Below, piece after piece: positions 2-32,202 of a DNA stretch of 64,000 nt. Under the pieces are notes generated by a model. That model searched no databases. It was not told the origin of the DNA and worked only from the letters and a program-made list of their open reading frames with translations. The stretch spans positions 13,533-77,532 of the forward strand of contig JADHWK010000006.1 of assembly GCA_016783505.1 (NCBI GenBank), read 5' to 3'. This DNA comes from Candidatus Zhuqueibacterota bacterium. GTDB lineage: Bacteria > BS750m-G25. The first letter of the stretch is position 1. Each line of letters begins with the position of its first letter. The position numbers and the translations under genes were made by a program.

Positions 2-1030
2 GGGCAGGCTGTAAAGAAGCGGGAACAATTGTTAAGACAGATCAAGGAAGGTCAGGCCCAGTTCATCATCGGCACCCACGCACTGATCCAGGAAGGGGTG
101 GATTTTAAAAGGTTGGGGTTGGTAGTGATTGACGAACAGCACCGATTCGGGGTGATGCAGCGGGCTATCCTGCGCAAGAAAGGCTTCTCGCCCGATGTGC
201 TGGTGATGACGGCCACCCCCATCCCCCGAACGCTTTCCCTGACCCTTTACGGGGACCTGGACATCTCAACCATCGAGGAGATGCCCAGCGGACGGAAGCC
301 GATAGTGACCGTGGTCCGGGACGAATCAAAAAGGGCGGATCTTTACCGTTTTATCCAAGAAGAAGTCCAGAGAGGAAGGCAGGTCTATATCGTCTACCCC
401 TTAGTGGAGGAGTCGGAGAAGGTGGACCTTGAGGACGCCACTCGGAACTGGAGGCGGTTGAAGGATGAGGTCTTTCCCCAGTTCCGGGTGGGGCTGTTGC
501 ACGGCAGGCTCAAGGGCGAGGAAAAGGAAGGGGTGATGGAGGTCTTCAAAGAGGGTCGGCTGGACATCCTGGTATGCACCACGGTGGTGGAGGTGGGGGT
601 GGATGTGCCCAATGCCACGGTGATGGTGATCGAACACGCCGAACGGTTCGGGCTAACCCCACTGCATCAACTGCGGGGTCGGGTGGGCCGGGGTGGGGAA
701 AGATCCTACTGCGTCCTGATGATCTCCGGCTATCCCTCCCCAGAAGCCAAAAGGAGGCTGAAGGTTATGACCCGAACCACCGATGGATTTAAGATTGCTG
801 AGACGGACCTGGAAATCCGGGGCCCCGGGGAGTTCTTCGGCACCAGGCAGCACGGCTTGCCCGAACTGACCATCGCCAACCTGCTGACCGATGGGGAGAT
901 CCTACGACGGGCCCGAAGAGAGGCTTTTTCCTTAGTGGATCGGGACTCCAAGCTGATGAACCATCCCCGGGTGCGGGAGCACCTGATAAGGCGCTACCGG
1001 CATAAGTGGGAACTGGCGGGGGTGGGGTGA
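2..1030 (+). CDS. recG: ATP-dependent DNA helicase RecG, C-terminal part (begins before window)
   Basis: IIGTHAL, DEQHRFGVMQR, MTATPIPRTL, HQLRGRVGRG and DLEIRGPGEFFGTRQHG motifs; frame open from nt 2. Confidence 0.97.
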   Translation, partial: GQAVKKREQLLRQIKEGQAQFIIGTHALIQEGVDFKRLGLVVIDEQHRFGVMQRAILRKKGFSPDVLVMTATPIPRTLSLTLYGDLDISTIEEMPSGRKPIVTVVRDESKRADLYRFIQEEVQRGRQVYIVYPLVEESEKVDLEDATRNWRRLKDEVFPQFRVGLLHGRLKGEEKEGVMEVFKEGRLDILVCTTVVEVGVDVPNATVMVIEHAERFGLTPLHQLRGRVGRGGERSYCVLMISGYPSPEAKRRLKVMTRTTDGFKIAETDLEIRGPGEFFGTRQHGLPELTIANLLTDGEILRRARREAFSLVDRDSKLMNHPRVREHLIRRYRHKWELAGVG

Positions 1031-1146
1031 TCACGGATGACACGGATGTTGCGCCTGCCTGTCGGCAGACAGGGATTCACACGGATTGATAATATTTTGA
1101 ATAAAGAATCGGTGAAAATCTGCTTGAGCTAGTGTCATCTGTGTGC
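1031..1146. repeat. Inverted short-period repeat element (CACGGAT-type units) with nested CCTGCCTGTCGGCAGACAGG palindrome
   Basis: CACGGATGACACGGAT...CACACGGAT on the left, ATCGGTG...GTGTCATCTGTGTG on the right; inner palindrome at ~1054-1073. Confidence 0.65.
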
Positions 1147-1248
1147 TACTTTTTCTAAAAGTTTTGGAATTCTGTCCAGATCCGTATCTTCAGATCGGTT
1201 CTCAATTTATAGACGTTTTATTCTACAGATTTATTAGGTTTCGGAGTT

Positions 1249-1374
1249 ACCCCGAGATCTCGGGGTTTATAAACAGAATTGTGTGGAGTGCGTCCCGAGC
1301 CTTCGGGACGCATAAATTGACATCCCGAATGATCAGTCAGGCCCCTGACTGATCGGGACAGGCTGGTCAATTTA
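1249..1374. repeat. Cluster of palindromic mini-elements upstream of parA
   Basis: Perfect ACCCCGAGATCTCGGGGT (1249-1266); GCGTCCCGA-GCCT-TCGGGACGC; TAAATTGAC...GTCAATTTA enclosing TCCCGA...ATCAGTCAGGCCCCTGACTGATCGGGA. Confidence 0.8.
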
Positions 1375-1424
1375 CTACAAAATAGAATTTGTGAAAGGTA
1401 ACAGCCGTTTTATAAGGACAATAC

Positions 1425-2189
1425 ATGGGTAAGGTTATCGTAATTGCCAATCAGAAGGGGGGGACGGGGAAGACAACCACCGCTGTTAACCTATCGGCGG
1501 CCATCGCGGTGGCCGAGCGGAAAACGCTGCTGGTGGACATTGACCCCCAGGCCAATTCCACCTCTGGATTTGGGATCAATGCCCGCAAGAACCAGCGCAC
1601 CATCTATGATGTGTTGATCAAAGAGCAGAAGCTTAGCCAGACCGTCCTTTCCACCGATATTGGTTATCTTGACCTGGTTCCCTCACACATCAAGCTGGTG
1701 GGGGCCGAGGTGGAGCTGGTGAGCATGATCGCCAGGGAACATATCCTACGTAAGGCCTTGGAGGGGGTAAAGGAAAACTATCGTTATGTCTTCATTGATT
1801 GTCCCCCCTCCCTGGGTCTTTTGACCTTGAACGGGCTCACGGCAGCCGATTCGATTCTCATCCCCATTCAGTGTGAATATTACGCCCTGGAAGGACTGGG
1901 CCAGCTTTTAAACACCATCAGACTGGTTCAAAAGTATCTGAACAAGAAACTTAGAATTGAGGGGGTGTTGTTGACGATGTATGATTCCCGGCTGAACCTG
2001 GCCAAACAGGTGGCCGAGGATGTTAGAAACTATTTCGGTGAAAAGGCTTTTCGAACGATTATTAATCGCAATGTAAAGTTGTCCGAGGCGCCCAGCTTCG
2101 GCCTCCCCATTATTCTCTACGATGCCATCTCCCGGGGGGCGGAAGACTATCTGGCCTTGGCGGAGGAGTTATTAAGCCATGAAGAATAA
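1425..2189 (+). CDS. parA: Chromosome partitioning ATPase ParA/Soj
   Basis: Deviant Walker [35 protein letters not shown]. Confidence 0.97.
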
Positions 2190-3036
2190 AGTCTTGGGCA
2201 GGGGGCTGGAAGCCCTGATCCCCATGCCGGAAGAGGAAGGAGTGGGGGTTCAGGAGATCGAGTTGGCCGGGATTAAGTCCAATCCCTACCAGCCCCGACA
2301 GCAATTCGATCGGGAGGGGTTTGAGGAACTGAAGCGGTCCATTGAGGAAAAAGGGATCATCCAGCCCATTGCCGTTCGTAAGGCCGGGGATGGTTTTGAG
2401 GTCATCGCCGGGGAGAGGCGGGTGCGGGCCTGTAAGGAACTGGGGTGGGAGAAAATTGCTGCCTATGCGCTGGAAAATATTTCCGATGGGGAGATGCTGG
2501 AAATTGCCTTAGTGGAAAACATCCAGCGGGAAGATCTGAACCCCATGGAGTTGGCCCTGGCCTACCAGCGGTTGATCACAGAAAGGCACCTGACCCAGGA
2601 GGAGGTGGCCCAGCGGGTGGGCAAGGATCGGTCCACGGTGACCAATTTCTTAAGGCTCTTGAAACTTCCGGCTAAGGTTCAAGAAAGTCTACGAACCGGG
2701 GAGATCACGGTGGGACATGCCCGGGCGCTGGTCACTGTGGGCGGGGAAACCAACCAACTGGCAATCTGGGAAAAGATCGTCCGGCAGGGGCTCAACGTCC
2801 GTCAGGTGGAGAAGCTGGTGGGCGGGGGGACGCTAAGGCCGCCCGGGGCGGGCCCCTCACGTCCCAAAAAACTGTCTTATCTGATCGAGGCTGAGGATAA
2901 ACTCCAGGGGATCCTGGGGACGAAGGTGAGAATAAAGCACCGGAAAAAAGGGGGGCACATCGAGATTGAATACTATTCCAATGAGGACCTGGAGAGGTTG
3001 ATGGAGATTTTCTCAGCCATGGAAGAACGATATTAA
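2179..3036 (+). CDS. parB: Chromosome partitioning protein ParB/Spo0J
   Basis: LGRGLEAL N-terminus, [24 protein letters not shown]; overlaps parA. Confidence 0.97.
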
Positions 3037-3078
3037 GAGAAACTATTTCCCAATGGTTTACCAAAAAATTAACTTTCC

Positions 3079-6000
3079 ATGAAAAAGTTATCCTTAGTTT
3101 TAACCGGTGTTTCTTTGTTACCAGCCCTCCTTTTCTCCCAGACCTGGTGGGGGGGCAAACTACAAAGACCAGAAGCAAGGAAAAGTCAGGTCGTCCGCAC
3201 TAAAAAAGGGGAAGTCCAATCGGTGCTGGTCAGCCGGGATGGGGAGGTTCGGGTCAATACTATTGATCTGAACGAGGAGCTTTACGTTATTGTCCAGTTT
3301 AAGGATACCCCGTTGTTGTTGCAGAAAAAGCGGGAGCGGATGTCTCCGGGATCAATCGAAGCCCGATTTGGCCAGTTTGAAGCCGACTTGGCCAGGCTTC
3401 AGGCTAAGGTGGCCCCCCACCTGGCCCCGGAGGCTCCCACCTATCAAATTCTTAGGCGCTTTTCCAAAATCTACTGCGGGGTTTCCCTGAAGGCATCAAG
3501 GGGTCTGGTGCAGACCCTTCATGGGCTTCCCTATGTTAAAAGCATCAGGGAAGTTAAGAAGGTTTACGCCCATCTGAACGAAAGCGTGGGCCTGATTGGG
3601 GCCGATTCGGTCTGGAGCCATTACGGGGTTATGGGGGATAGTATTGTAGTGGGCGTTTTGGACACCGGGATTGACTATACCCATCCCGCTTTAGGGAATG
3701 GGTTCGGCCCGGGCTTTAAGGTCATCGGGGGGTATGATGTGGCGAATCAGGATGAGGATCCTATGGATGGTGTCGGGCATGGGACCCACGTGGCGGGGAT
3801 CGTGGCCGCCGATGGGGACAGCATTCGGGGGGTGGCCCCCCGCGCCCTGCTGATGGCCTTTAAGGTGTTAACCGATGAGGGATGGGGATGGGAAGATTGG
3901 ATCCTTGAGGGTATCGAGAGAGCCGTAGATCCCGATGGGGATCCCAATACTGATGACGCCGTTGATATCATTAACCTCAGTTTGGGAGGCAGGGGTGACC
4001 CCGATGATCCCCTTTCTACGGCGGTGGACGGGGCAGTGGAATTGGGTGTAGTCTGCGTGATTTCGGCAGGAAATAACTTTAATTATAACTCCATTGGAAG
4101 CCCCGGAACAGCCCGGGCGGCGATCACAGTAGGGGCTACTGATAAATCCGACCAGATTGCCTATTTCAGTTCCCGGGGCCCTAATAAGATAACTTATGGC
4201 ATAAAACCGGACCTCGTGGCTCCTGGGGTGGATATCCTCTCCTGTGACTTGGGGGGAGGGTTTGTGAAACACGACGGCACCTCTATGTCGGCTCCCCATG
4301 TTGCCGGTGTGGCGGCACTGCTGTTAGACCTGTATCGGGACTGGACCCCGGCGATGATCAAATCGGCCCTGATGAGCCAGGGTGTGGACATAGGCGAGGA
4401 TGTGTTTACCCAGGGAGCCGGGAGGGTGGATGCCTTAGCCTCTGCGGGAGTGGCTACCCTCACCAACCCGGCTAGCCTGAGCTTCGGTCTGGATGACGTA
4501 ACCCAGGATTTATGGACGGTGACCGATACCCTAAATGTCATTAATGTTGATTCCCTACTACAGGATTATGTTATCCAGTTTTCAGGGATGCTGGAGGGTC
4601 TTTCGCTAAGTGCTGACCCAGCAGGTTTTACCTTATTACCGGGCGGGGAACAGTCGGTCGTCATTGAATTACTGGTGGATAATATCCTGCTTTCCTGGCC
4701 TGAAGAATATCCCCCCTCCTATGAGGGAGCATTGACGATTGGTGGAACCTCGGATACGCTGAACATCCCCTGGGCCCTGCTGAAAGCATCGGTGGTTCGG
4801 CTTACGTTTGACAGTCCCCGGCCAGGGGTCTTTATCAGCAGTAACGAGTATGCTATAACTGATGTTGATTTAACCTGGGAAGCTGGTAATACAGTAGCTG
4901 AGGGGATTCTTCCCCGGGGGATTTATGATATCGTGACTCATTATTATGGTCTCACAACAAATAGATATGTGTTTTGGGAGAATATGCTTATTGAGGGCTT
5001 TTTGGATACGCTGATTTCCTCTTCTGAAGCGATCCATGCCATTACCACTTGGGACCTCGACGAAGGGGGGAACCCTTTGGGCGGTGGTGATGAATTAAAT
5101 AGCCACCAGAACATCATCCTTACCTTTCCTGATTCATCCTATTTCCGTGCCTACTCCCTTGGCTCTCCCATTTCAGATACCGTTATGACTTCAGATTTTA
5201 GTTCGGATTTTGAATTACAGGTAGTCCACCGACGGGTTATTCAGGGAAAATTTTATGTCATGTCCCATAGTATAGAAGGATTGGTTATAGACACGGCCCT
5301 GGTCAACGACCCTTTTTCCTATGTTTCCCAGGCCCTTAATTTTCAATTTAATCCTAATATGGGAAATTATTTTCTCACTTTTTTAGACGGCATACATGTT
5401 AAAAGGGATGAGATCGAATTCGGTTTCTTATTTGGTCAAATAGAACCCTACTACCCTGTAGAAAATCCCGACTCTATCCAGGCGTTCTTAACAAATAGAA
5501 TAGCTCGGAAAGAAGTCGGATACATAACCGCTCTTGATGGTTGGGATATTGATCTGTATAATTTTGAGGATGTTATTCGTGGATATTATTTCTTTAGCAG
5601 ACCTTTTTATGTCACCGAGGGGGACTCGGTGGCCAATAGCTGGTGGGTTCCCCCCAAAAAAATCGATGTGGTTTCCCCGACGGGGGGACAAATGTTCTTC
5701 GGTGGATCAGCGCCTTTTTGCTATTCTTACAACCTAAATAACTATTTTGGGAACCTATCCATTATGAATTATCCTTACCCTACCGGACAAGCCAATGAAG
5801 TTAGATATTCGGATTTATTTAAATCCCGATATTGGATAATGCAAGATACCACCGTCCTGACAACCGATACCTTGTGGAATATTGAGCCCTTCACTGTTCA
5901 ATCCCCGGCCTTGTATACCTTTATGGTTGAAAACCCGAACTACTATCTGGACCAGCTTCAGGGACAATCCCAGCTCTGGATGACCTTTGACCTGGGACAG

Positions 6001-24536: not shown

Positions 24537-24800
24537 ATGGCAAAAGGAATCCGGGGGGGAAAGCGAAGGGTCATAAAAGAGCAGAAACTGCTCGGTTTCG
24601 TGGGACGGGAAAATTATCTCTTTTTTCTGGGGGGTGTTGGGGTCCTAATCTTGGGGTTTATCTTTCTCTCTATTGGACCTTGGGACAGTTTTTGGTCATT
24701 AACGCTGGCCCCCATCCTGTTGATCATCGGTTATATCATTTTGATTCCCCTGTCCATTCTCTACAAAAAAAAGAAGGGGGGAGACAATCCGGGCGGTTAG
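24537..24800 (+). CDS. Small two-TM membrane protein (DUF3098-like)
   Basis: ENY...G..LILGF...SLTLAPILLIIGY; stop codon lies inside tRNA-Val. Confidence 0.65.
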   Translation: MAKGIRGGKRRVIKEQKLLGFVGRENYLFFLGGVGVLILGFIFLSIGPWDSFWSLTLAPILLIIGYIILIPLSILYKKKKGGDNPGG

Positions 24801-24865
24801 CTCAGTTGGTTTAGAGTGTCTGCCTTACAAGCAGAAAGTCGGCAGTTCGAATCTGCCACCGCCCA
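24791..24865 (+). tRNA. tRNA-Val(TAC)
   Basis: GGGCGGT/ACCGCCC acceptor stem; TCTGC-CT-TAC-AA-GCAGA anticodon arm; GGCAG-TTCGAAT-CTGCC T-arm. Confidence 0.95.
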
Positions 24866-24884
24866 CAGAAAGTTAAAATGTTTG

Positions 24885-24913
24885 TTGACAAAGCCGCGAA
24901 TTTTTCGTAAATT
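24885..24913 (+). promoter_or_regulatory. Sigma70-type promoter for pseudo-tRNA-Asp / GIY-YIG / tRNA-Asp
   Basis: TTGACA-17 nt-TAAATT. Confidence 0.6.
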
Positions 24914-24945
24914 TAAATAGGTTATTTACTGAAAGTTTTTTTTAG

Positions 24946-25020
24946 GGGGTCGTAGTTCAGTTGGCTAGAACGCCGGTCTGTCATCCCGATGGTTCGGGAC
25001 GAGTTCGAGTCTCGGTGGAT
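24946..25020 (+). pseudogene. tRNA-Asp pseudo-copy 1 (hairpin replacement, divergent 3' end)
   Basis: 5' half nearly identical to 25261; TCCCGATGGTTCGGGA replaces CGCCGGAGGTCG; acceptor 3' strand lost. Confidence 0.85.
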
Positions 25021-25025
25021 GCCTG

Positions 25026-25283
25026 ATGTTTTATGTGTATTTATTGCAGAGTGAAAAAGATGGTTCTTTCTACATTGGATATACCTCAAATTTAGAACTC
25101 AGAATAAAGGAACACAATAATGGGAAAGGACGTTACACCAACAAGAAAACACCATGGTCATTGGTTTATGTGGAAAGATTTGCGATAAAAAGCGATGCTT
25201 TAAGACGGGAGAGATTTTTAAAAAGGCAGAAAAATAGGGCTTTTTATGAAAAGTTGATACGGGGTCGTAGTTCAGTTGGCTAG
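25026..25283 (+). CDS. Small GIY-YIG nuclease (UPF0213/Slx1-like)
   Basis: FYVYLLQS...FYIGYT..LELRIKEHN.G...YT....PW.LVY.E......AL.RE..LK; last 23 nt lie in tRNA-Asp. Confidence 0.92.
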   Translation: MFYVYLLQSEKDGSFYIGYTSNLELRIKEHNNGKGRYTNKKTPWSLVYVERFAIKSDALRRERFLKRQKNRAFYEKLIRGRSSVG

Positions 25284-25334
25284 AACGCCGGCCTGTCACG
25301 CCGGAGGTCGCGAGTTCGAGTCTCGTCGGCCCCG
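25261..25334 (+). tRNA. tRNA-Asp(GTC), intact
   Basis: GGGGTCG/CGGCCCC acceptor stem; CCGGC-CT-GTC-AC-GCCGG anticodon arm; GCGAG-TTCGAGT-CTCGT T-arm; CCA not encoded. Confidence 0.95.
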
Positions 25335-25338
25335 CCCG

Positions 25339-25391
25339 AAATAGCCTCCTCAAGTTCTTAAGAAAAATAACTTGACCGGAGGCTATTTTTT
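25339..25391 (+). terminator. Intrinsic terminator after tRNA-Asp
   Basis: AAATAGCCTCC-TCAAGTT...AACTTGA-CC-GGAGGCTATTTTTT. Confidence 0.7.
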
Positions 25392-25480
25392 GAGACTTCC
25401 GACAAATACTAGGTTTGGTTTCTGATGTAAAAAATTCTTGATCTGGTTAAACAGTTATTTGCCGAAGGTTTTTTTATTGG

Positions 25481-25556
25481 GGGGTCGTAGTTCAGTTGGC
25501 TAGAACGCCGGTCTGTCATCCCGATGGTTCGGGACGAGTTCGGGTCTCGTCGGCCC
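25481..25556 (+). pseudogene. tRNA-Asp pseudo-copy 2 (hairpin replacement)
   Basis: Same TCCCGATGGTTCGGGA replacement; upstream ~25 nt resemble those of copy 1. Confidence 0.85.
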
Positions 25557-25589
25557 TCCGAATGCCAAAAGGCTTTCCCTCTTCATCCA

Positions 25590-25860
25590 ACCTATCGAAA
25601 AAGTCTACCAAGCTACACACACCACCATCCCCATAGCTACGCCCCGCTTAAACGGATCAACGTAAAACTTCCACGGTCGCATTGAAGATGAACTCTGTAC
25701 CACCGAAACCTTTACCTATGAAAAAGAACTTCTGGATAAAATAATAAGCTATATGCTGTTCTATCACTTCAAACGCCCACACCAAGGCCTCAGCAATAAC
25801 AACGGGCGTCCCTCTACATTATACCTTTACATCAAAACTAAACTACCTAATGCAACACCA
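25590..25860 (+). pseudogene. Integrase-core (IS481/IS3-like DDE) transposase remnant
   Basis: Manual translation HTTIPIATPRLNGST*NFHGRIEDEL...YMLFYHFKRPHQGL with internal stop. Confidence 0.65.
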
Positions 25861-26011
25861 TCCTTGACATTCCTACCGCCAATCATCTTGGATCGGATCC
25901 CAATCAGTCGGGCGCATGACCGATCCACCCAAAACAACTGCTCCAACAAACACGCCCCACTAATAGTGGGGAGGTCTTATCCATTGAGGTCAATATTACT
26001 TAATTTTTTAC

Positions 26012-26061
26012 TTGACTTTCAACAAATTAATTATTATATTTAGGAGTATGTACGTACATAC
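26012..26061 (+). promoter_or_regulatory. Sigma70 promoter with perfect 16-bp palindromic operator at the predicted +1
   Basis: TTGACT(26012)-17 nt-TATATT(26035); GTATGTACGTACATAC at 26046-26061. Confidence 0.7.
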
Positions 26062-26084
26062 ATACTTCTAAAATTGTAACCTCT

Positions 26085-27005
26085 ATGATCAAGATAACTA
26101 AAACAATCAAGATTTCAATACGCCAGGAAGAGTGGATCAAATCTAAAAAGATTAACTTTTCAGAGTGGGTAAGACAGAAATTAGATGCAGAAATTGATCA
26201 ACAACTCAAATTGGGAAATAAAGACAGATTCAAGGCTGTTATATTAGCTGCTGGCAAAGATACTAACCTTTTTCCGCTCACTGAAGATATACCCAAAGCT
26301 CTACTTGATGTCAAGGGAAAAACTATCCTCCAGCGACAGATTGAAATGCTTAGGATGATCGGGATAAATGATATTGCAGTCGTGCGAGGTTACAAAAAGG
26401 ATCAGATAAACTTCCCTAATCTGGAGTACTTTGATAATGATGATTATGAAAATACAGGAATTTTAGTTTCTTTATTTCTTGCCAGGAAATTTATGGATGG
26501 AGATATGGTAGTTTTGTACGGTGACATTCTTTTTGAAATAGGCATACTAAAAAGACTAATAGAAACACGATACAACACTACTCTAGTTGTTGATAGAGGT
26601 TGGAAAAGGCGCTATCAGGTTAGTCATGAAGAGCATCCTTCTGCTCCTGAGTTGACTACCCTATCTGACAAAGAGCGGGAGATTGAAATTAGTTCAGTTG
26701 GCGTCGGTTTACCTGAAACTAATTCAACATCTGAATTTATCGGGTTAGCTAAATTATCAACCAGTGCCTGTTCAGTTCTCAAGGATCTTTATGAAAAAGT
26801 TTATTGTGTAAATAAGGATAAGAAATTTTACCAGACTGAACATATTAGAAATGCATCCTTCGTCGACTTTATTCAAGAATTGATAAATCGGGGAGAAAAA
26901 GTGTCTGCTTTAGAAATTTGGCGGAAATGGATAGATGTAGACACGTTTGAAGACTACAGAAATGCATGGAAACTTTTAGACGAAATAACTGGGAGCGAAA
27001 AATGA
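26085..27005 (+). CDS. LicC/PntC-like cytidylyltransferase with N-terminal putative ribbon-helix-helix domain
   Basis: AVILAAG...PLTEDIPKALL, YGDILF, EFIGL, WIDVDTFEDY; N-terminal KTIKIS...INFSEWVRQKLD. Confidence 0.8.
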   Translation: MIKITKTIKISIRQEEWIKSKKINFSEWVRQKLDAEIDQQLKLGNKDRFKAVILAAGKDTNLFPLTEDIPKALLDVKGKTILQRQIEMLRMIGINDIAVVRGYKKDQINFPNLEYFDNDDYENTGILVSLFLARKFMDGDMVVLYGDILFEIGILKRLIETRYNTTLVVDRGWKRRYQVSHEEHPSAPELTTLSDKEREIEISSVGVGLPETNSTSEFIGLAKLSTSACSVLKDLYEKVYCVNKDKKFYQTEHIRNASFVDFIQELINRGEKVSALEIWRKWIDVDTFEDYRNAWKLLDEITGSEK

Positions 27006-27430
27006 GAATTGTTTATTCATATTATGTGTTAGATATTGTTCATAGAGGGCATTTGTTAATGATGAAAAACGCCAAAGCAATAGCCGGAGTGGATGGTAAG
27101 TTAATAGTGGGAATTCTTACCGATGAGGCAGTTTTGGAAAAAAAGCCAAATAAACCGACACTATCATTTGAGGAAAGAATTGAACTGGCGAGTGCAATAA
27201 AATATGTGGATGTTGCAGTCGCACAAGAAACTTATTCACCATTGCCCAATGTTATGAGAATTAAACCTGATATATTGATGGAAAGTGCAAGTCATGATGA
27301 AGAAGAAATTGAAAAGGCAAGGGAATATATGGCGAGTATTAAAGGCAAAGTTATTGTCATTCCATACTTTCCCTCACAATCATCAACCGAAATAAAAAAC
27401 ATCATAGTTGAAAATAGTAAAAGAGAATAG
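27002..27430 (+). CDS. HxGH-family cytidylyltransferase (TagD-like; resembles the domain fused to PEP mutases)
   Basis: DIVHRGH, VGILTDEAV, FEER, KPD, SSTEIK; ATG at 27002 overlaps upstream stop. Confidence 0.85.
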   Translation: MRIVYSYYVLDIVHRGHLLMMKNAKAIAGVDGKLIVGILTDEAVLEKKPNKPTLSFEERIELASAIKYVDVAVAQETYSPLPNVMRIKPDILMESASHDEEEIEKAREYMASIKGKVIVIPYFPSQSSTEIKNIIVENSKRE

Positions 27431-27463
27431 TACGGGATTACACAATATTAACAGGAGTGGAAA

Positions 27464-28765
27464 ATGGCAAATGAATTAACTGAGTCTGTAAACCTGCAGA
27501 TTAGGCACTGGCAAAAGAAAATGTTCTGGCTGATGTGGATAACCTACGCCTCATTTTATCTGGGGCGCGTAAATATCTCAGTAGCTTTGCCTGGAATAAT
27601 GGACGAGTTTGGCTTAACAAAAACTAATATAGGATGGGTTTTGAGTAGTCTGTTTGCACTGTATGCAATTGGGCAATTTATCAATGGTCAGCTGGGCGAT
27701 AGACTAAATTCTAGGAGAATCATTACAATTGGATTGTTATCATCGGCGGTTTTAAATGTTATTTTTGGGTTCATCGGTGGCATATTAGGTCTTATGGTTG
27801 TTATATGGGGATTGAATGGATATTTCCAATCAATGGGTTGGGGACCTACTGTAAAAGCGATGGCAAATTGGTTTCCCCAAAATATAAGAGGTAAAATTTC
27901 CGGACGTCTGGGTACCTGCTACATTATTGGAGGAGCGCTTTCATGGCTGCTGGCTGGCACGATTATTAGATATTTTAATTGGCGTTTTACCTTCTGGTTA
28001 CCTTCCTTAGTGATGATACTTATTGCTGTTCATTGGTTTATTCGTGCAAGAAACGCGCCTGAAGAAATAGGGTTACCAAGTTTAGAAGAGCAAGAAAAAG
28101 GTATTGAAAACACACAGGTTCGCAAAGATGAGCATATTGGTTTTCGTAAAACATTAAAGATCACTCTTTTAAATCCCTATGTTTGGTTTGCGGCCTTTGG
28201 ATTGTTTGGGTTAAACATTGTGCGTTACGGTTTTATGAGCTGGGCACCGACTTATATGTTTGAAGAGCAAGGTGCAACAATTTCATTAGCAGCTTATAAG
28301 GCAATTGCTTTTCCTATAGCTGGGGGTCTTGGTGCAATATTTGCCGGCTGGGCATCAGATAAGATGTTTAATAACCGAAGGGCGCCGATTGCTTTTATCA
28401 TGCTGATTTTATTAGCTGTATTCTGCTACCTATACAGAATAGTTCCTGGAGAAAACTGGATTGTGAGTTTAATTATATTATTATTGATTGGCTTTTTTAC
28501 TTTTGGTCCTCATATACTGGTGGTAGCTGCATTACCAGCGGACTTAGGTTCACGTAAAGCTGCTTCATCTGTAACCGGTTTCATAGATGCAATGGGATAT
28601 GTGGGAGCAAGCTTAACTGGTGTTGGAACTGGTTATCTTATAGACAAATTTAATTGGGATGCTGCTTTTTACTTCTGGATTTTTGGTGCACTCATGGCTG
28701 CAGCTATGATGATTTTTATTTGGAAATTTGAACTAAAAAGAGGAGAATATGAAAATGAGTATTAG
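27464..28765 (+). CDS. MFS transporter, organophosphate:Pi antiporter family (GlpT/UhpT-like)
   Basis: YASFYLGRVN, NGYFQSMGW, PEEIGLP, NIVRYG...WAPTY, GFIDAMGY. Confidence 0.88.
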   Translation: MANELTESVNLQIRHWQKKMFWLMWITYASFYLGRVNISVALPGIMDEFGLTKTNIGWVLSSLFALYAIGQFINGQLGDRLNSRRIITIGLLSSAVLNVIFGFIGGILGLMVVIWGLNGYFQSMGWGPTVKAMANWFPQNIRGKISGRLGTCYIIGGALSWLLAGTIIRYFNWRFTFWLPSLVMILIAVHWFIRARNAPEEIGLPSLEEQEKGIENTQVRKDEHIGFRKTLKITLLNPYVWFAAFGLFGLNIVRYGFMSWAPTYMFEEQGATISLAAYKAIAFPIAGGLGAIFAGWASDKMFNNRRAPIAFIMLILLAVFCYLYRIVPGENWIVSLIILLLIGFFTFGPHILVVAALPADLGSRKAASSVTGFIDAMGYVGASLTGVGTGYLIDKFNWDAAFYFWIFGALMAAAMMIFIWKFELKRGEYENEY

Positions 28766-29765
28766 AGTTCATGTTAAAATTATGGTTTCAATTTTTGTTA
28801 GTGTCCTTTTATTGGCAAGGGGAATTTTACATGCACAGCAATCTTCCGGTATGAAGATTTCAGGTTTAGCCTACAACGCCTACTACTACGATTTTTCTAA
28901 AGGTTCACAGGATAAAAATGGGTTCGATTTAACCCGATTGTATCTTACCTTCAAGAAAGGTCTATCTGAAAATATTGGCATTCGAGTCACTACTGACATA
29001 GGCCGTGTTTCCAATGATCAGGAGAAAGGATATTACCGGCTTTATCTTAAATATGGATATGTCGAATTGAAGAAACCATCCTGGAAGGTTAAACTCCTGG
29101 TAGGCCTGCACTATGTTCCATTGTTGGCATTTCAGGAAAACATTTGGGGTTATCGTTCTATAAGCAAAATGCTTACCGATCTTGAACATAAACAGACCTC
29201 ATCAGACCTGGGACTGAAGCTTCATGGTCAATTTCACAAAGAGTACGGAGAATATGCTTTCTCCTTTGTGAATGGTGAGGGATACAACCAACCAGAAATG
29301 GGCAAACACAAAGGGTTCTATGGACGAATATCCCTTAGACCTTTCCCCATTAGTATACATGGGCTTCGGTTGACGGGGTTCGCTTCCCACATTCAACATG
29401 ATCAGGACTCCTCAACCACACTCACTACGGGATTTGCCACCCTTGAATCCAACCGATTAACTCTTGGTGCTGAGTTCTCAGCGGGCAATGATAAAATAGG
29501 CAGCCAGAAGACCAAATTTTTAGGCTATTCTTTCTTCAGTGTTTTCAAACTTACTTCTAAATGGACTATCATTGGCAGAATGGACTGGTTTGACCCTGAC
29601 ACAAGGACAAAAAAGAATTCCCATCTGAGGAAAATCATAGGGATCGGATATTGGATAAGTAAAGATGTAGAATTGGTTTTTGACTACCAAGGGGTTCAAT
29701 ATGACGAAGGAATTTCGTATATAAATTCGGACATCCTTTATACTCATCTACATTTTAATTTTTAA
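28749..29765 (+). CDS. Outer membrane porin (phosphate-selective porin-like)
   Basis: Signal peptide; FDLTRLYLTF, NGEG, RMDWFDPD, terminal HFNF. Confidence 0.7.
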   Translation: MKMSIRVHVKIMVSIFVSVLLLARGILHAQQSSGMKISGLAYNAYYYDFSKGSQDKNGFDLTRLYLTFKKGLSENIGIRVTTDIGRVSNDQEKGYYRLYLKYGYVELKKPSWKVKLLVGLHYVPLLAFQENIWGYRSISKMLTDLEHKQTSSDLGLKLHGQFHKEYGEYAFSFVNGEGYNQPEMGKHKGFYGRISLRPFPISIHGLRLTGFASHIQHDQDSSTTLTTGFATLESNRLTLGAEFSAGNDKIGSQKTKFLGYSFFSVFKLTSKWTIIGRMDWFDPDTRTKKNSHLRKIIGIGYWISKDVELVFDYQGVQYDEGISYINSDILYTHLHFNF

Positions 29766-29933
29766 AGCCAGTGGGTATATTGAAGGCGAGCGAATCAGGA
29801 CAAGTAATTTTATTGAATATGTAAGTATGTATATGTTTGCCGATACACGCTACTTATATTGATAATTAACATGAAGTTAGTAGCAACTAAAATTCTTGCA
29901 CTGAAAATGTATATTTTATAATAACGTGTTGGG

Positions 29934-30039
29934 GAAAAATAGGGTAATAAAAAGTTGATACGGGTTCGTAGTTCAGTTGGTTAGGACACCGGCCTGTCAT
30001 CCTGATGGTTCGGGACGGGATCGAGTCTCGTCGGCCCCG
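29934..30039 (+). pseudogene. tRNA-Asp pseudo-copy 3 (29962-30039) preceded by remnant of GIY-YIG 3' end
   Basis: GAAAAATAGGG...AAAAGTTGATACGGG matches 25229-25263; TCCTGATGGTTCGGGA replacement; ends CGGCCCCG. Confidence 0.85.
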
Positions 30040-30092
30040 CTTGCCCCCACTAATGATTATTTCCTTAGCAAAAGTGGGGGTTTTCTTTTTTA

Positions 30093-31995: not shown

Positions 31996-32202
31996 GGGCC
32001 TGTTGCAGAACTATTGTAATTGATAATTTAGGGGTTATTTTAAAACCGCTCTAAAGAGCGGTTCTGGTTAACTAATTGTTAAACAAAACGTTAACCAGTC
32101 CGCATTTGTCCGCCTAGGGTAGGAGGCTACGCTTAATCTTATCCCGATAGTTCGGGATAGGTTCTGGACATTAGCAACTTTTACTAGCTGTGCCACAGGC
32201 CC
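31996..32202. mobile_element. 207-bp non-autonomous IS-derived element (MITE) with 18-bp TIRs and GGGC target duplication
   Basis: GGGCCTGTTGCAGAACTA vs reverse complement of right end GGGCCTGTGGCACAGCTA (15/18); GGGC at 31992-95 and 32203-06. Confidence 0.8.

What the first reader, a model, noticed from the sequence alone, without database searches (positions are those of the whole stretch)
24885..30039. tRNA-Asp / GIY-YIG array in which three tRNA copies carry the same hairpin replacement
Seen: four tRNA-Asp copies (24946, 25261, 25481, 29962). Only 25261 is intact. In the other three, the 12 nt CGCCGGAGGTCG right after the anticodon are replaced by the 16-nt hairpin TCC(C/T)GA-TGGT-TCGGGA. 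An 85-aa GIY-YIG gene sits between copy 1 and the intact tRNA. The last copy is preceded by a remnant of that gene's 3' end. The copies at 24946 and 25481 share upstream sequence. The underlying unit therefore looks like [leader-modified tRNA-nuclease/cargo-tRNA], present twice, with cargo in place of the nuclease the second time. Known: integrase att sites duplicate only part of a tRNA, and GIY-YIG domains act in homing and structure-specific cleavage. Inference: an integrase-independent selfish system in which a small GIY-YIG nuclease acts on tRNA genes or hairpins, amplifies units and captures cargo.
Basis: partly seen in the sequence, partly recalled or inferred. Interest (0 to 1): 0.85.

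Follow-up and report, generated by a model that had tools for sequence, protein, structure and literature searches.

The report
Hairpin nuclease cassette nested in tRNA-Asp genes
A tiny GIY-YIG nuclease gene sits between a working tRNA-Asp gene and broken tRNA copies carrying a fixed hairpin; the same gene, tRNA and hairpin trio recurs across several bacterial phyla, so it extends a recently described family of hairpin-cutting nucleases.

Summary
The window has four tRNA-Asp-like copies. Three have nt 38-49 replaced by TCC(C/T)GA-TGGT-TCGGGA. An 85-aa GIY-YIG ORF runs 23 nt into the only intact copy, and a remnant of its 3' end precedes copy 4.

The hairpin is not tRNA-specific. TCCCGA-N4-TCGGGA occurs 226 times in this 2.5-Mb MAG against 0 in a shuffle, mostly between genes. 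All four GIY-YIG paralogues here abut tRNA genes.

Of the 80 best related loci, 59 carry tRNA-Asp on the same strand and 68 have this hairpin within 300 nt, usually replacing an arm of a partial tRNA copy. They come mainly from Bacteroidota and Ignavibacteriota, plus Aminicenantia and candidate phyla. Tandem arrays reach about 14 units.

The closest known system is the Ssn family (PMC11893778, 2025): single-domain GIY-YIG nucleases that cut single-stranded DNA beside genome-wide hairpin repeats. That paper's main text never mentions tRNA, and its search motif misses these hairpins.

Verdict: a new variant of a known kind. The trio is firmly associated; mobility, cleavage and cargo capture are inferred.

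The parts
24791..24866 (+). tRNA-Val (TAC), the upstream neighbour; not part of the cassette
   Evidence: ARAGORN; Rfam tRNA 72.1 bits
24885..24913 (+). Promoter-like site TTGACA-17-TAAATT, upstream of pseudo-tRNA copy 1. It is the likely promoter for copy 1, the GIY-YIG gene and the tRNA-Asp (inferred)
   Evidence: Consensus scan, 10 of 12 matches. The related locus L009 has TTGACA-17-TAAGTT at the same relative place (read)
24946..25015 (+). Pseudo-tRNA-Asp copy 1: tRNA nt 1-37, then the hairpin, then the T arm; the 3' acceptor strand is missing
   Evidence: Alignment A1; Rfam tRNA 22.9 bits, below gathering score; DNA fold shows the hairpin and T arm only
24984..24999 (.). Hairpin TCCCGA-TGGT-TCGGGA, 26 nt before the nuclease start codon
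   Evidence: genome-wide family
25026..25283 (+). GIY-YIG nuclease gene, 85 aa, single domain, Ssn-like. Its last 23 nt, including the stop codon, lie inside the intact tRNA-Asp
   Evidence: ORF; PF01541 E = 7.9e-18; 85% identical to a Candidatus Aminicenantia protein; 38-42% identical to homologues flanked by NTS-type hairpins; PDB 1zg2 E = 9.6e-12
25261..25337 (+). Intact tRNA-Asp (GTC), the only structurally intact Asp tRNA found in this 60%-complete genome
   Evidence: ARAGORN; Rfam 69.3 bits
25342..25391 (+). Terminator-like inverted repeat TAGCCTCC...GGAGGCTA followed by a T run, after the intact tRNA
   Evidence: Read from the sequence. The scan tool did not list it because the loop is long
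25438..25480 (+). Leader shared with the region upstream of copy 1
   Evidence: Alignment A1
25481..25559 (+). Pseudo-tRNA-Asp copy 3: full length, with the hairpin (25519-25534) replacing nt 38-49
25666..25860 (+). Short remnant of the C-terminal end of a DDE (rve-type) transposase; weak support
   Evidence: rve_3 E = 0.0079, 16.4 bits, below the cut-off of 26.5
26085..29765 (+). Low-GC four-gene block: NTP-transferase, cytidylyltransferase, MFS transporter and an outer-membrane beta-barrel-like protein. It sits where the second unit's nuclease gene would be
   Evidence: ORFs; Pfam; GC 34-45% here against 52-60% in the 1.6 kb downstream and 45-58% in the 5 kb upstream
29931..29961 (+). Remnant of the 3' end of a second GIY-YIG gene
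   Evidence: Alignment A1; BLAST of L009 2704-2810 against window 29934-30040, 77% identity
29962..30039 (+). Pseudo-tRNA-Asp copy 4: a diverged copy with the hairpin TCCTGA-TGGT-TCGGGA at 30000-30015, followed by a terminator-like stem and T run at about 30044-30091
   Evidence: Rfam 28.9 bits against gathering score 29

Best explanation
This is a tRNA-Asp locus occupied by a cassette that encodes an Ssn-like nuclease. That means a single-domain GIY-YIG enzyme of the kind shown in Neisseria and Wolbachia to bind a specific hairpin in single-stranded DNA and cut just upstream of it. The TCCCGA-N4-TCGGGA hairpin would be that nuclease's cognate repeat.

One unit consists of a promoter, a partial tRNA-Asp copy in which the 3' anticodon-stem strand and variable loop are replaced by the hairpin, the nuclease ORF, and the intact tRNA-Asp that supplies the ORF's stop codon. 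A second unit follows: copy 3, then the gene remnant plus copy 4. Its nuclease gene has been replaced by a foreign low-GC gene block.

Shown here: the anatomy; the genome-wide spread of the hairpin; and the cross-phylum link of this protein clade with tRNA-Asp, partial tRNA copies and the hairpin.

Inferred:
1. The protein binds and cuts the hairpin in single-stranded DNA.
2. The gene is transcribed together with the tRNA. RNase P cleavage at the tRNA 5' end would remove the stop codon and so limit expression.
3. The tRNA-derived direct repeats drive unit amplification by recombination. They may also act as conserved homology arms through which the cassette, and sometimes neighbouring genes, enter tRNA genes.
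For: Protein:
- PF01541 at 65 bits.
- The invariant residues Y5, Y16, G18, R26, H30 and E62 are kept across 25 homologues.
- It is 38-42% identical to GIY-YIG proteins in L093 and L096, whose genes are flanked by hairpins that match the published SRM motif.

Hairpin:
- TCCCGA-N4-TCGGGA occurs 226 times in G000 and 0-8 times in each of 40 unrelated genomes.
- Only 29 of 293 hairpins lie in ORFs of 120 aa or more, although such ORFs cover 82% of the genome.
- The Aminicenantia genome that holds the 85%-identical homologue has 127 copies.

tRNA link:
- All 4 GIY-YIG paralogues in G000 abut tRNA genes (Asp, Pro, Ala, Asn). Each has a partial tRNA copy on its other side, and in the Asp, Pro and Asn loci that copy carries this hairpin; the Ala copy carries a different one.
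- Of 80 related loci, 59 have tRNA-Asp on the same strand and 52 have a tRNA within 150 nt.
- 68 of 80 loci have the hairpin within 300 nt: 112 hairpins in 64 kb near the gene against 43 in 298 kb elsewhere.
- The hairpin sits at five recurrent tRNA positions, each time replacing the 3' strand of a stem.

Amplification:
- L022 and L028 each have two intact tandem units.
- G064 has 13.9 units of 361 nt, 98% alike, downstream of tRNA-Met.

Within one family: 25 of 41 genomes have the gene, and hairpin number tracks gene number (Spearman 0.64). Related genomes are not independent.

Published biochemistry for the family: PMC11893778, Results, section 10 and Discussion read.
Against: - No biochemistry exists for this clade.
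- The published SRM search motif matches none of these hairpins: 0 of 80 loci, and no modified tRNA copy in the window.
- Membership of CDD cd10448 could not be tested. The protein is as close to UPF0213 BH0048 (E = 9.6e-12) as it is to the NTS-flanked homologues.
- Protein and hairpin co-vary only in part. Three paralogues in G000 that are 37-47% identical share one hairpin, whereas the Ala paralogue (GTCCGAC...) and the G064 tRNA-Met clade (TCCGGC...) have variants.
- One tRNA-linked homologue, L092 beside tRNA-Gln, has a partial tRNA copy without this hairpin.
- How the hairpin comes to replace tRNA arms is unexplained.
- Signs of mobility are weak. The tree mostly follows host families, and matches are rare in phages (1 of 50,697 records) and plasmids (2 of 72,556).
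Confidence: 0.68

Rival explanations
1. A classical free-standing homing endonuclease, like phage T4 SegB. The nuclease cuts double-stranded intact tRNA-Asp genes in genomes that lack the cassette. Repair copies the cassette in, and the hairpin-disrupted copy is the cleavage-immune allele.
For: - The gene sits among tRNA genes and is flanked by tRNA-derived repeats that could serve as homology arms.
- Protein clades go with particular tRNA types.
- Arrays would result if the target is regenerated after each insertion.
- Precedent: SegB, PMC2330249 and PMC13096335 (search listing and start of abstracts only).
Against: - The protein has only the 85-aa catalytic domain and no DNA-binding domain.
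- Any disruption would give immunity, yet the same hairpin stem is kept across phyla and at five different tRNA positions.
- The hairpin also occurs hundreds of times outside tRNA contexts.
- The intact tRNA beside the gene would remain a target.
- Characterised relatives did not cut double-stranded DNA.
Confidence: 0.12
2. The elements act at the RNA level. The hairpin-bearing partial tRNAs would be processing, stability or decoy elements of the tRNA-nuclease transcript, and the hairpin would be an RNA protein-binding site.
For: - All parts lie on one strand behind a promoter-like site.
- Whole tRNA arms are sometimes replaced by a hairpin of similar size, for example the Pro T arm and the Asn D arm.
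- The ORF's stop codon lies inside the tRNA.
Against: - Most partial copies lack one acceptor strand, so they cannot form a tRNA-like substrate.
- In G000 the stem arms extend as a palindrome into the loop (A...T flanking two variable centre bases), which a hairpin structure alone does not require.
- Characterised relatives did not bind RNA.
- No RNA run holding this stretch was listed, so expression could not be examined.
Confidence: 0.08
3. An ordinary genomic island inserted at tRNA-Asp by an integrase or insertion sequence, with decaying tRNA duplicates. The nuclease gene and hairpin would be bystanders.
For: A low-GC four-gene block and a weak rve_3 remnant lie between copies 3 and 4.
Against: - No integrase gene is present.
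- The repeats include the tRNA 5' end, not just a 3' attachment core.
- The trio recurs without any island in dozens of genomes.
Confidence: 0.07
4. A metagenome assembly artefact that stitched together tRNA-Asp loci from different organisms.
For: The contig comes from a MAG. Logan contigs break inside the shared tRNA segment, and the intact tRNA bin has very high summed depth from other organisms.
Against: - Every unique junction lies inside single contigs: copy 1 hairpin to nuclease gene to tRNA 5' part; tRNA 3' end to copy 3 to beyond; gene block to remnant to copy 4 to flank.
- These are seen in runs X1 and X2 (possible sources) and in X5 and X6 from other studies.
- A related MAG has the same unit at 86.7% identity over 391 nt.
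Confidence: 0.04

Closest known systems
Ssn family of site-specific single-stranded DNA nucleases with NTS/SRM hairpin repeats (N. meningitidis SsnA; Chenal et al. 2025, PMC11893778)
   Same: - A single-domain GIY-YIG protein of about 90 aa.
- The gene is flanked by a hairpin repeat that also occurs in hundreds of mostly intergenic copies.
- The motifs resemble each other: TGTCA-TCCCG...CGGGA-C here, against CGTCAT-TCCCGCG...CGGGAAT in the NTS.
- 38-42% identity to homologues flanked by NTS-type hairpins.
   Different: - The hairpin has a 6-bp stem and fails the published degenerate motif.
- Here the repeats sit inside partial tRNA copies, and the gene abuts or overlaps a tRNA gene of a set type.
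- Units form tandem arrays.
- The paper's main text has no occurrence of 'tRNA'; its supplements could not be read.
- The C-terminal region differs, and assignment to cd10448 is untested.
Phage T4/T6 SegB, a GIY-YIG homing endonuclease in the phage tRNA gene cluster (PMC2330249, PMC13096335; listing and start of abstracts only)
   Same: A GIY-YIG nuclease gene embedded among tRNA genes. It is linked to preferential inheritance and segmental amplification of the tRNA region.
   Different: From recall, SegB is a multi-domain enzyme that cuts double-stranded DNA in a phage. Here the protein is 85 aa, chromosomal, tied to a hairpin repeat, and rare in phage records.
REP elements and their RAYT transposases (IS200/IS605-like); recalled, and cited in the Discussion of PMC11893778
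   Same: A single resident nuclease gene flanked by the hairpin repeats that have multiplied across the genome between genes.
   Different: RAYTs are Y1 (HUH) transposases able to cut and rejoin DNA. A GIY-YIG enzyme is hydrolytic, with no known joining activity. REPs are not embedded in tRNA copies.
UPF0213 proteins (PDB 1zg2 BH0048, 1ywl EF2693) and the Slx1 nuclease domain
   Same: The nearest solved structures by sequence: profile E = 5.3e-16 and 5.9e-13; Slx1 about 1e-6.
   Different: The UPF0213 entries are named as hypothetical proteins. Slx1 carries extra domains and, from recall, cuts branched DNA.

Membership tests
GIY-YIG nuclease superfamily (PF01541) | Match to the domain model above its curated threshold | tested here: met
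   65 bits against 22.6, residues 1-71
GIY-YIG nuclease superfamily (PF01541) | Conserved catalytic-core residues: the Tyr of 'GIY', the Tyr-x-Gly of 'YIG', Arg, His and Glu | tested here: met
   Y5, Y16, G18, R26, H30 and E62 are invariant in 25 homologues. Their catalytic roles are recalled from I-TevI and UvrC, not tested
Ssn nucleases (Chenal et al. 2025) | Single-domain protein of about 90-100 aa with no separate DNA-binding domain | tested here: met
   85 aa; the only matches above threshold, PF01541 and PF10544, overlap on one domain
Ssn nucleases (Chenal et al. 2025) | Gene flanked on both sides by a hairpin repeat | tested here: met
   Hairpins lie 26 nt upstream and 235 nt downstream of the ORF; 68 of 80 related loci have at least one within 300 nt
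Ssn nucleases (Chenal et al. 2025) | The same repeat present in many, mostly intergenic, copies in the genome | tested here: met
   226 strict and 293 core copies; 29 of 293 lie in long ORFs
Ssn nucleases (Chenal et al. 2025) | Repeat matches the published SRM degenerate motif | tested here: not met
   0 of 80 loci match, and no modified tRNA copy matches. The motif does find canonical NTS-like sites in L093 and L096
Ssn nucleases (Chenal et al. 2025) | Assignment to CDD cd10448 and to the Ssn clade | not testable with these tools
   No CDD library or named SsnA sequence was at hand. 38-42% identity to NTS-flanked homologues, but equally close to UPF0213. The tree does not resolve the placement
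Ssn nucleases (Chenal et al. 2025) | Cuts single-stranded DNA upstream of the hairpin, with no activity on double-stranded DNA or RNA | not testable with these tools
   Needs biochemistry
Free-standing GIY-YIG homing endonucleases (Seg type) | Catalytic domain joined to a DNA-binding domain, about 200 aa or more (recalled) | tested here: not met
   85 aa, one domain
Integrase-borne genomic island at a tRNA gene | Integrase gene beside the tRNA, with direct repeats limited to the tRNA 3' part | tested here: not met
   No integrase among ORFs from 24.5 to 30.1 kb, only a sub-threshold rve_3 remnant. The repeats start at tRNA nt 1
Functional tRNA (for copies 1, 3 and 4) | Complete cloverleaf including the anticodon stem | tested here: not met
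   The 3' strand of the anticodon stem is replaced. Rfam scores are 22.9, 40.3 and 28.9 against 69.3 for the intact copy

The most novel reading that the evidence does not exclude
tRNA-nested Ssn cassettes would be a distinct class of integrase-free mobile element. They would use the near-universal sequence of one tRNA type as both landing site and homology arms. The nuclease's action on single-stranded DNA would plant its own hairpin into the stem-loops of spare tRNA copies, and in some lineages into hundreds of other sites. That would turn those copies into pseudo-tRNAs and generate tandem arrays, and it could tie the host's only working tRNA-Asp to the cassette's promoter. The repeated units would then act as portable recombination anchors that let foreign gene blocks enter, as with the low-GC four-gene block here.
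Probability: 0.3. Interest if true: 0.8.

Novelty: new variant of a known kind. Interest (0 to 1): 0.62.

Why it matters
- The Ssn nucleases were described in 2025 as the first site-specific single-stranded DNA endonucleases. Their role outside Neisseria is open, and so is the way their hairpin repeats multiply.
- This locus and its relatives give a large, previously unreported context for such genes (literature searches). They sit inside tRNA loci, with the hairpin replacing arms of partial tRNA copies, in Bacteroidota, Ignavibacteriota, Aminicenantia and candidate phyla.
- The published search motif misses this clade, so the family may be considerably wider than reported.
- The before-and-after pairs offer direct sequence evidence on how the hairpins insert. 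An intact tRNA arm can be compared with its hairpin-replaced copy at five defined positions.
- Practically, these copies mislead tRNA annotation. Copy 3 passes both ARAGORN and the Rfam threshold.

Tried and rejected
Explanations considered and dropped:
- tRNA intron. There is no downstream 3' anticodon-stem strand, so removing the insert would not restore the tRNA.
- A class II long variable arm. No anticodon arm remains.
- The hairpin as a general cap on longer stems. Only 8 of 293 hairpins extend by 4 or more perfect pairs, against 3.5 in shuffled partners.
- A conserved GTCAT 5' flank genome-wide. It is not seen beyond [A/G]T.

Dead ends and limits:
- The fourth genome hit for the hairpin with flanks (C27, 2 mismatches) is not tRNA-related.
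- Rfam finds nothing but tRNA in the region.
- NCBIfam gives no family for the four paralogues.
- The genome search found no genome of the same phylum, so close-kin comparison was impossible there.
- No RNA holder was listed for the stretch.
- Parts of the stretch lack listed contig cover in run X6.
- A contig joint from 27092 to 29427 was seen in X1, X2 and X5 and was not explained.
- Cargo between units was looked for in the other 80 loci, but ORFs between units were not examined.
- The tree has only 85 columns and many unresolved forks. The placement of the NTS-type and Asn proteins is unreliable.
- Supplements of PMC11893778 were not readable. They list genomes and motif hits, and they may already include Bacteroidota or tRNA contexts.

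Full report
**1. What is in the window**

ARAGORN finds tRNA-Val (24791-24866), an intact tRNA-Asp (25260-25337) and a second "tRNA-Asp" at 25481-25559.

In the copies at 24946, 25481 and 29962, the 12 nt after GTCA are replaced by a 16-nt hairpin. These 12 nt are the 3' strand of the anticodon stem, the variable loop and the first T-stem base. The hairpin is TCC(C/T)GA-TGGT-TCGGGA.

- Copy 1 also lacks the 3' acceptor strand.
- Copy 4 has several further substitutions.
- Rfam's tRNA model scores the intact copy at 69.3 bits, and copies 3, 4 and 1 at 40.3, 28.9 and 22.9 bits (gathering score 29).
- Folding shows the new hairpin beside the T arm and no anticodon stem.

An 85-aa ORF (25026-25283) is a GIY-YIG domain (PF01541, E = 7.9e-18). 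It ends at a TAG inside the D loop of the intact tRNA, 23 nt into it. The 31 nt before copy 4 are a remnant of the same gene end.

A promoter-like site, TTGACA-17-TAAATT, lies upstream of copy 1. A terminator-like stem with a T run follows the intact tRNA.

Between copy 3 and the remnant lie a sub-threshold rve_3 fragment and four genes. They encode an NTP-transferase, a cytidylyltransferase, an MFS transporter and an outer-membrane barrel-like protein. This block has 34-45% GC, against 52-60% in the 1.6 kb downstream and 45-58% in the 5 kb upstream.

**2. Is the assembly sound?**

Logan contigs from four runs were laid on the stretch. X1 and X2 may be the source; X5 and X6 come from other studies. 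Each unique junction lies within a single contig, and contigs break only inside the shared tRNA segment. No long reads were available, so the order of the units rests on the MAG contig.

**3. The hairpin is a genome-wide repeat**

The window lies in a 2.5-Mb MAG of 89 contigs, about 60% complete.

- CCCGA-N4-TCGGG occurs 293 times, against 1 in a shuffle.
- The strict form TCCCGA-N4-TCGGGA occurs 226 times.
- The next commonest hairpin of that shape occurs 47 times.
- Forty unrelated genomes have 0-8 copies each.
- Only 29 of 293 lie inside ORFs of 120 aa or more, although such ORFs cover 82% of the genome.
- The hairpins sit in about 98 flank families, some of them known-looking interspersed repeats.
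- Only about a dozen have tRNA-like flanks.
- In this genome the loop usually starts with A and ends with T, around two variable centre bases. In the related Aminicenantia genome it is G...C. The arms are therefore really 7-nt palindrome halves.

**4. The nuclease genes go with tRNA genes**

All four GIY-YIG paralogues of this genome abut tRNA genes: Asp, Pro-GGG, Ala-GGC and Asn. Each has a partial copy of that tRNA on its other side.

- In the Pro locus the whole T arm is replaced by the hairpin.
- In Asn copies both the D arm and the anticodon 3' strand plus variable region are replaced.
- The Ala copy carries a variant hairpin, GTCCGAC-N7-GTCGGAC.

**5. Related loci elsewhere**

The best protein match (85% identity) is from a Candidatus Aminicenantia MAG. 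A scan of one genome per species found 242 loci, and the best 80 were kept. Most are from Bacteroidota. Several are from Ignavibacteriota, one is from Aminicenantia, and a few are from candidate phyla.

- 59 of 80 have tRNA-Asp (GTC) on the same strand.
- 52 of 80 have a tRNA within 150 nt.

Two layouts recur:

- Layout A, as in the window: a partial 5' tRNA copy with the hairpin, then the gene, then the intact tRNA. The ORF often ends 19 nt inside the tRNA.
- Layout B: the intact tRNA and its terminator, then the gene, then a 5'-truncated tRNA copy with the hairpin and the same terminator.

The strict hairpin lies within 300 nt of the gene in 68 of 80 loci. That is 112 hairpins in 64 kb near the gene against 43 in 298 kb elsewhere. 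Most of the distant ones sit in further pseudo-tRNA units.

The hairpin occupies five recurrent places:
- after nt 37;
- after nt 40/41;
- replacing the anticodon loop and 3' strand;
- replacing the 3' half of the T arm;
- replacing the 3' D-stem strand.

Relatives beside other tRNAs show the same design: Lys (L067, L082), Ile (L070) and Met (G064). One beside tRNA-Gln (L092) has the partial tRNA copy without this hairpin.

**6. Amplification**

- L022 and L028 each carry two intact tandem units ending in an intact tRNA.
- L074 and L044 show periodic units.
- G064 has 13.9 units of 361 nt, 98% alike, downstream of tRNA-Met. Each unit has a pseudo-tRNA-Met carrying TCCGGC-AATT-GCCGGA at the same position, after nt 37.

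**7. Distribution**

In the family around Maribellus, 25 of 41 sampled genomes have the gene. Hairpin counts average 7.2 with the gene and 1.2 without it (Spearman 0.64 with gene number). Related genomes are not independent.

The protein tree is poorly resolved but largely follows host families. The Aminicenantia pair sits with a Flavobacteriaceae and an Ekhidna protein (support 89/89). Proteins linked to other tRNAs fall outside the Asp cluster.

tblastn finds 1 of 50,697 phage records and 2 of 72,556 plasmid records.

The unit in L009 is 86.7% identical to the window's over 391 nt. BLAST found no other similarity between L009 and the 10 kb around it.

**8. What is known**

Chenal et al. 2025 (PMC11893778) was read in part: Results, section 10, Discussion and passage searches. 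The paper reports the following.

- Ssn nucleases are single-domain GIY-YIG proteins of about 94 aa (CDD cd10448).
- They bind a hairpin repeat, called NTS or more generally SRM, that flanks their gene and occurs in hundreds of mostly intergenic copies.
- They cut single-stranded DNA just upstream of the hairpin, and do not cut double-stranded DNA or RNA.
- The authors note that the NTS-ssnA-NTS layout resembles an insertion sequence, and they compare it with REP/RAYT.
- The main text has no occurrence of "tRNA".

The published degenerate motif hits none of the 80 loci and none of the window's hairpins. It does find canonical NTS-like sites beside GIY-YIG genes in two unrelated genomes (L093, L096). 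Those proteins are 38-42% identical to the window's protein.

By eye the motifs are related: TGTCA-TCCCG...CGGGA-C here, against CGTCAT-TCCCGCG...CGGGAAT in the NTS.

The nearest solved structures are UPF0213 proteins and Slx1. The window's protein is about as close to UPF0213 as to the NTS-flanked homologues, so formal membership of cd10448 remains untested.

Eight literature searches found no report of small GIY-YIG genes tied to tRNA genes and hairpin-bearing pseudo-tRNAs. The nearest precedent for a GIY-YIG gene in a tRNA cluster is phage SegB (search listing and start of abstracts only).

**9. Most likely mechanism**

Shown: the anatomy and the associations above.

Inferred from the published family: the protein binds its hairpin in single-stranded DNA and nicks nearby.

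Inferred from the layout:
- Transcription runs from the promoter upstream of the partial tRNA copy, through the gene, into the tRNA.
- RNase P cleavage at the tRNA 5' end would leave the message without a stop codon.
- The tRNA-derived direct repeats (38-80 nt) allow unequal crossing-over, which gives arrays. They could also let the cassette recombine into any tRNA gene of the same type.

In the window, the second unit lost its nuclease gene to an incoming low-GC block. Copy 4 is the most diverged copy and may have arrived with that block.

How the hairpin replaces tRNA arms, and how it spread to hundreds of other sites in Aminicenantia, is not explained.

**10. Verdict**

The hairpin-nuclease pairing belongs to a family described in 2025. 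The tRNA-nested architecture, the link to specific tRNA types and the arrays appear to be new. Mobility, cleavage of tRNA genes and cargo capture remain hypotheses.

Noticed in passing
window 1293-1308, 1325-1367 and 32142-32157: Three more hairpins of the same stem, the second with a long loop. They lie in two other interspersed repeat families of this genome (clusters of 21 and 13 copies), with no tRNA or GIY-YIG gene beside them.
   Followed up: partly
G000 contig C35:19061-19132, outside the window: ARAGORN's 'tRNA-???' in a tRNA cluster (Ser, Arg, Glu, Gln) is a hairpin-bearing pseudo-tRNA with tRNA-Glu-like flanks. No GIY-YIG match was found on that contig.
   Followed up: partly
L101 (G064:C1:2024800-2031800), 814-5818: An array of 13.9 near-identical 361-nt units downstream of an intact tRNA-Met. 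Each unit holds a GIY-YIG gene, a pseudo-tRNA-Met with the variant hairpin TCCGGC-AATT-GCCGGA, and a terminator.
   Followed up: yes
G000 genome-wide, e.g. C1:61691, C84:1895, C83:1257-1315; also L082 downstream of the gene: Interspersed repeats of the form GTCATTCTGA...GAAGAATC and GTCATTGCGA...GAAGCAATC occur with the hairpin as their central part, and also without it. In L082 a similar repeat is inserted in the T arm of a pseudo-tRNA-Lys. These may be cognate repeats of other nucleases of this family.
   Followed up: no
window 25261-25283: The nuclease ORF's last seven codons and its stop codon lie inside the tRNA-Asp. 5' processing of the tRNA would therefore leave the message without a stop codon. 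The same 19-nt overlap recurs in 13 of the 80 related loci.
   Followed up: partly
window 26085-29765: A low-GC block of an NTP-transferase, a cytidylyltransferase, an MFS transporter and an outer-membrane barrel-like protein, with its own promoter-like site at 26012-26040. It looks like a transferred module for activating and importing a small phosphorylated head group; its function was not examined.
   Followed up: no
window 27092 to 29427: Contigs in runs X1, X2 and X5 join these two places, skipping 2334 nt, with 50 nt on the shorter side. This could be a deletion variant or a short repeat from elsewhere.
   Followed up: no
None of these genes abuts a tRNA gene.
   Followed up: partly
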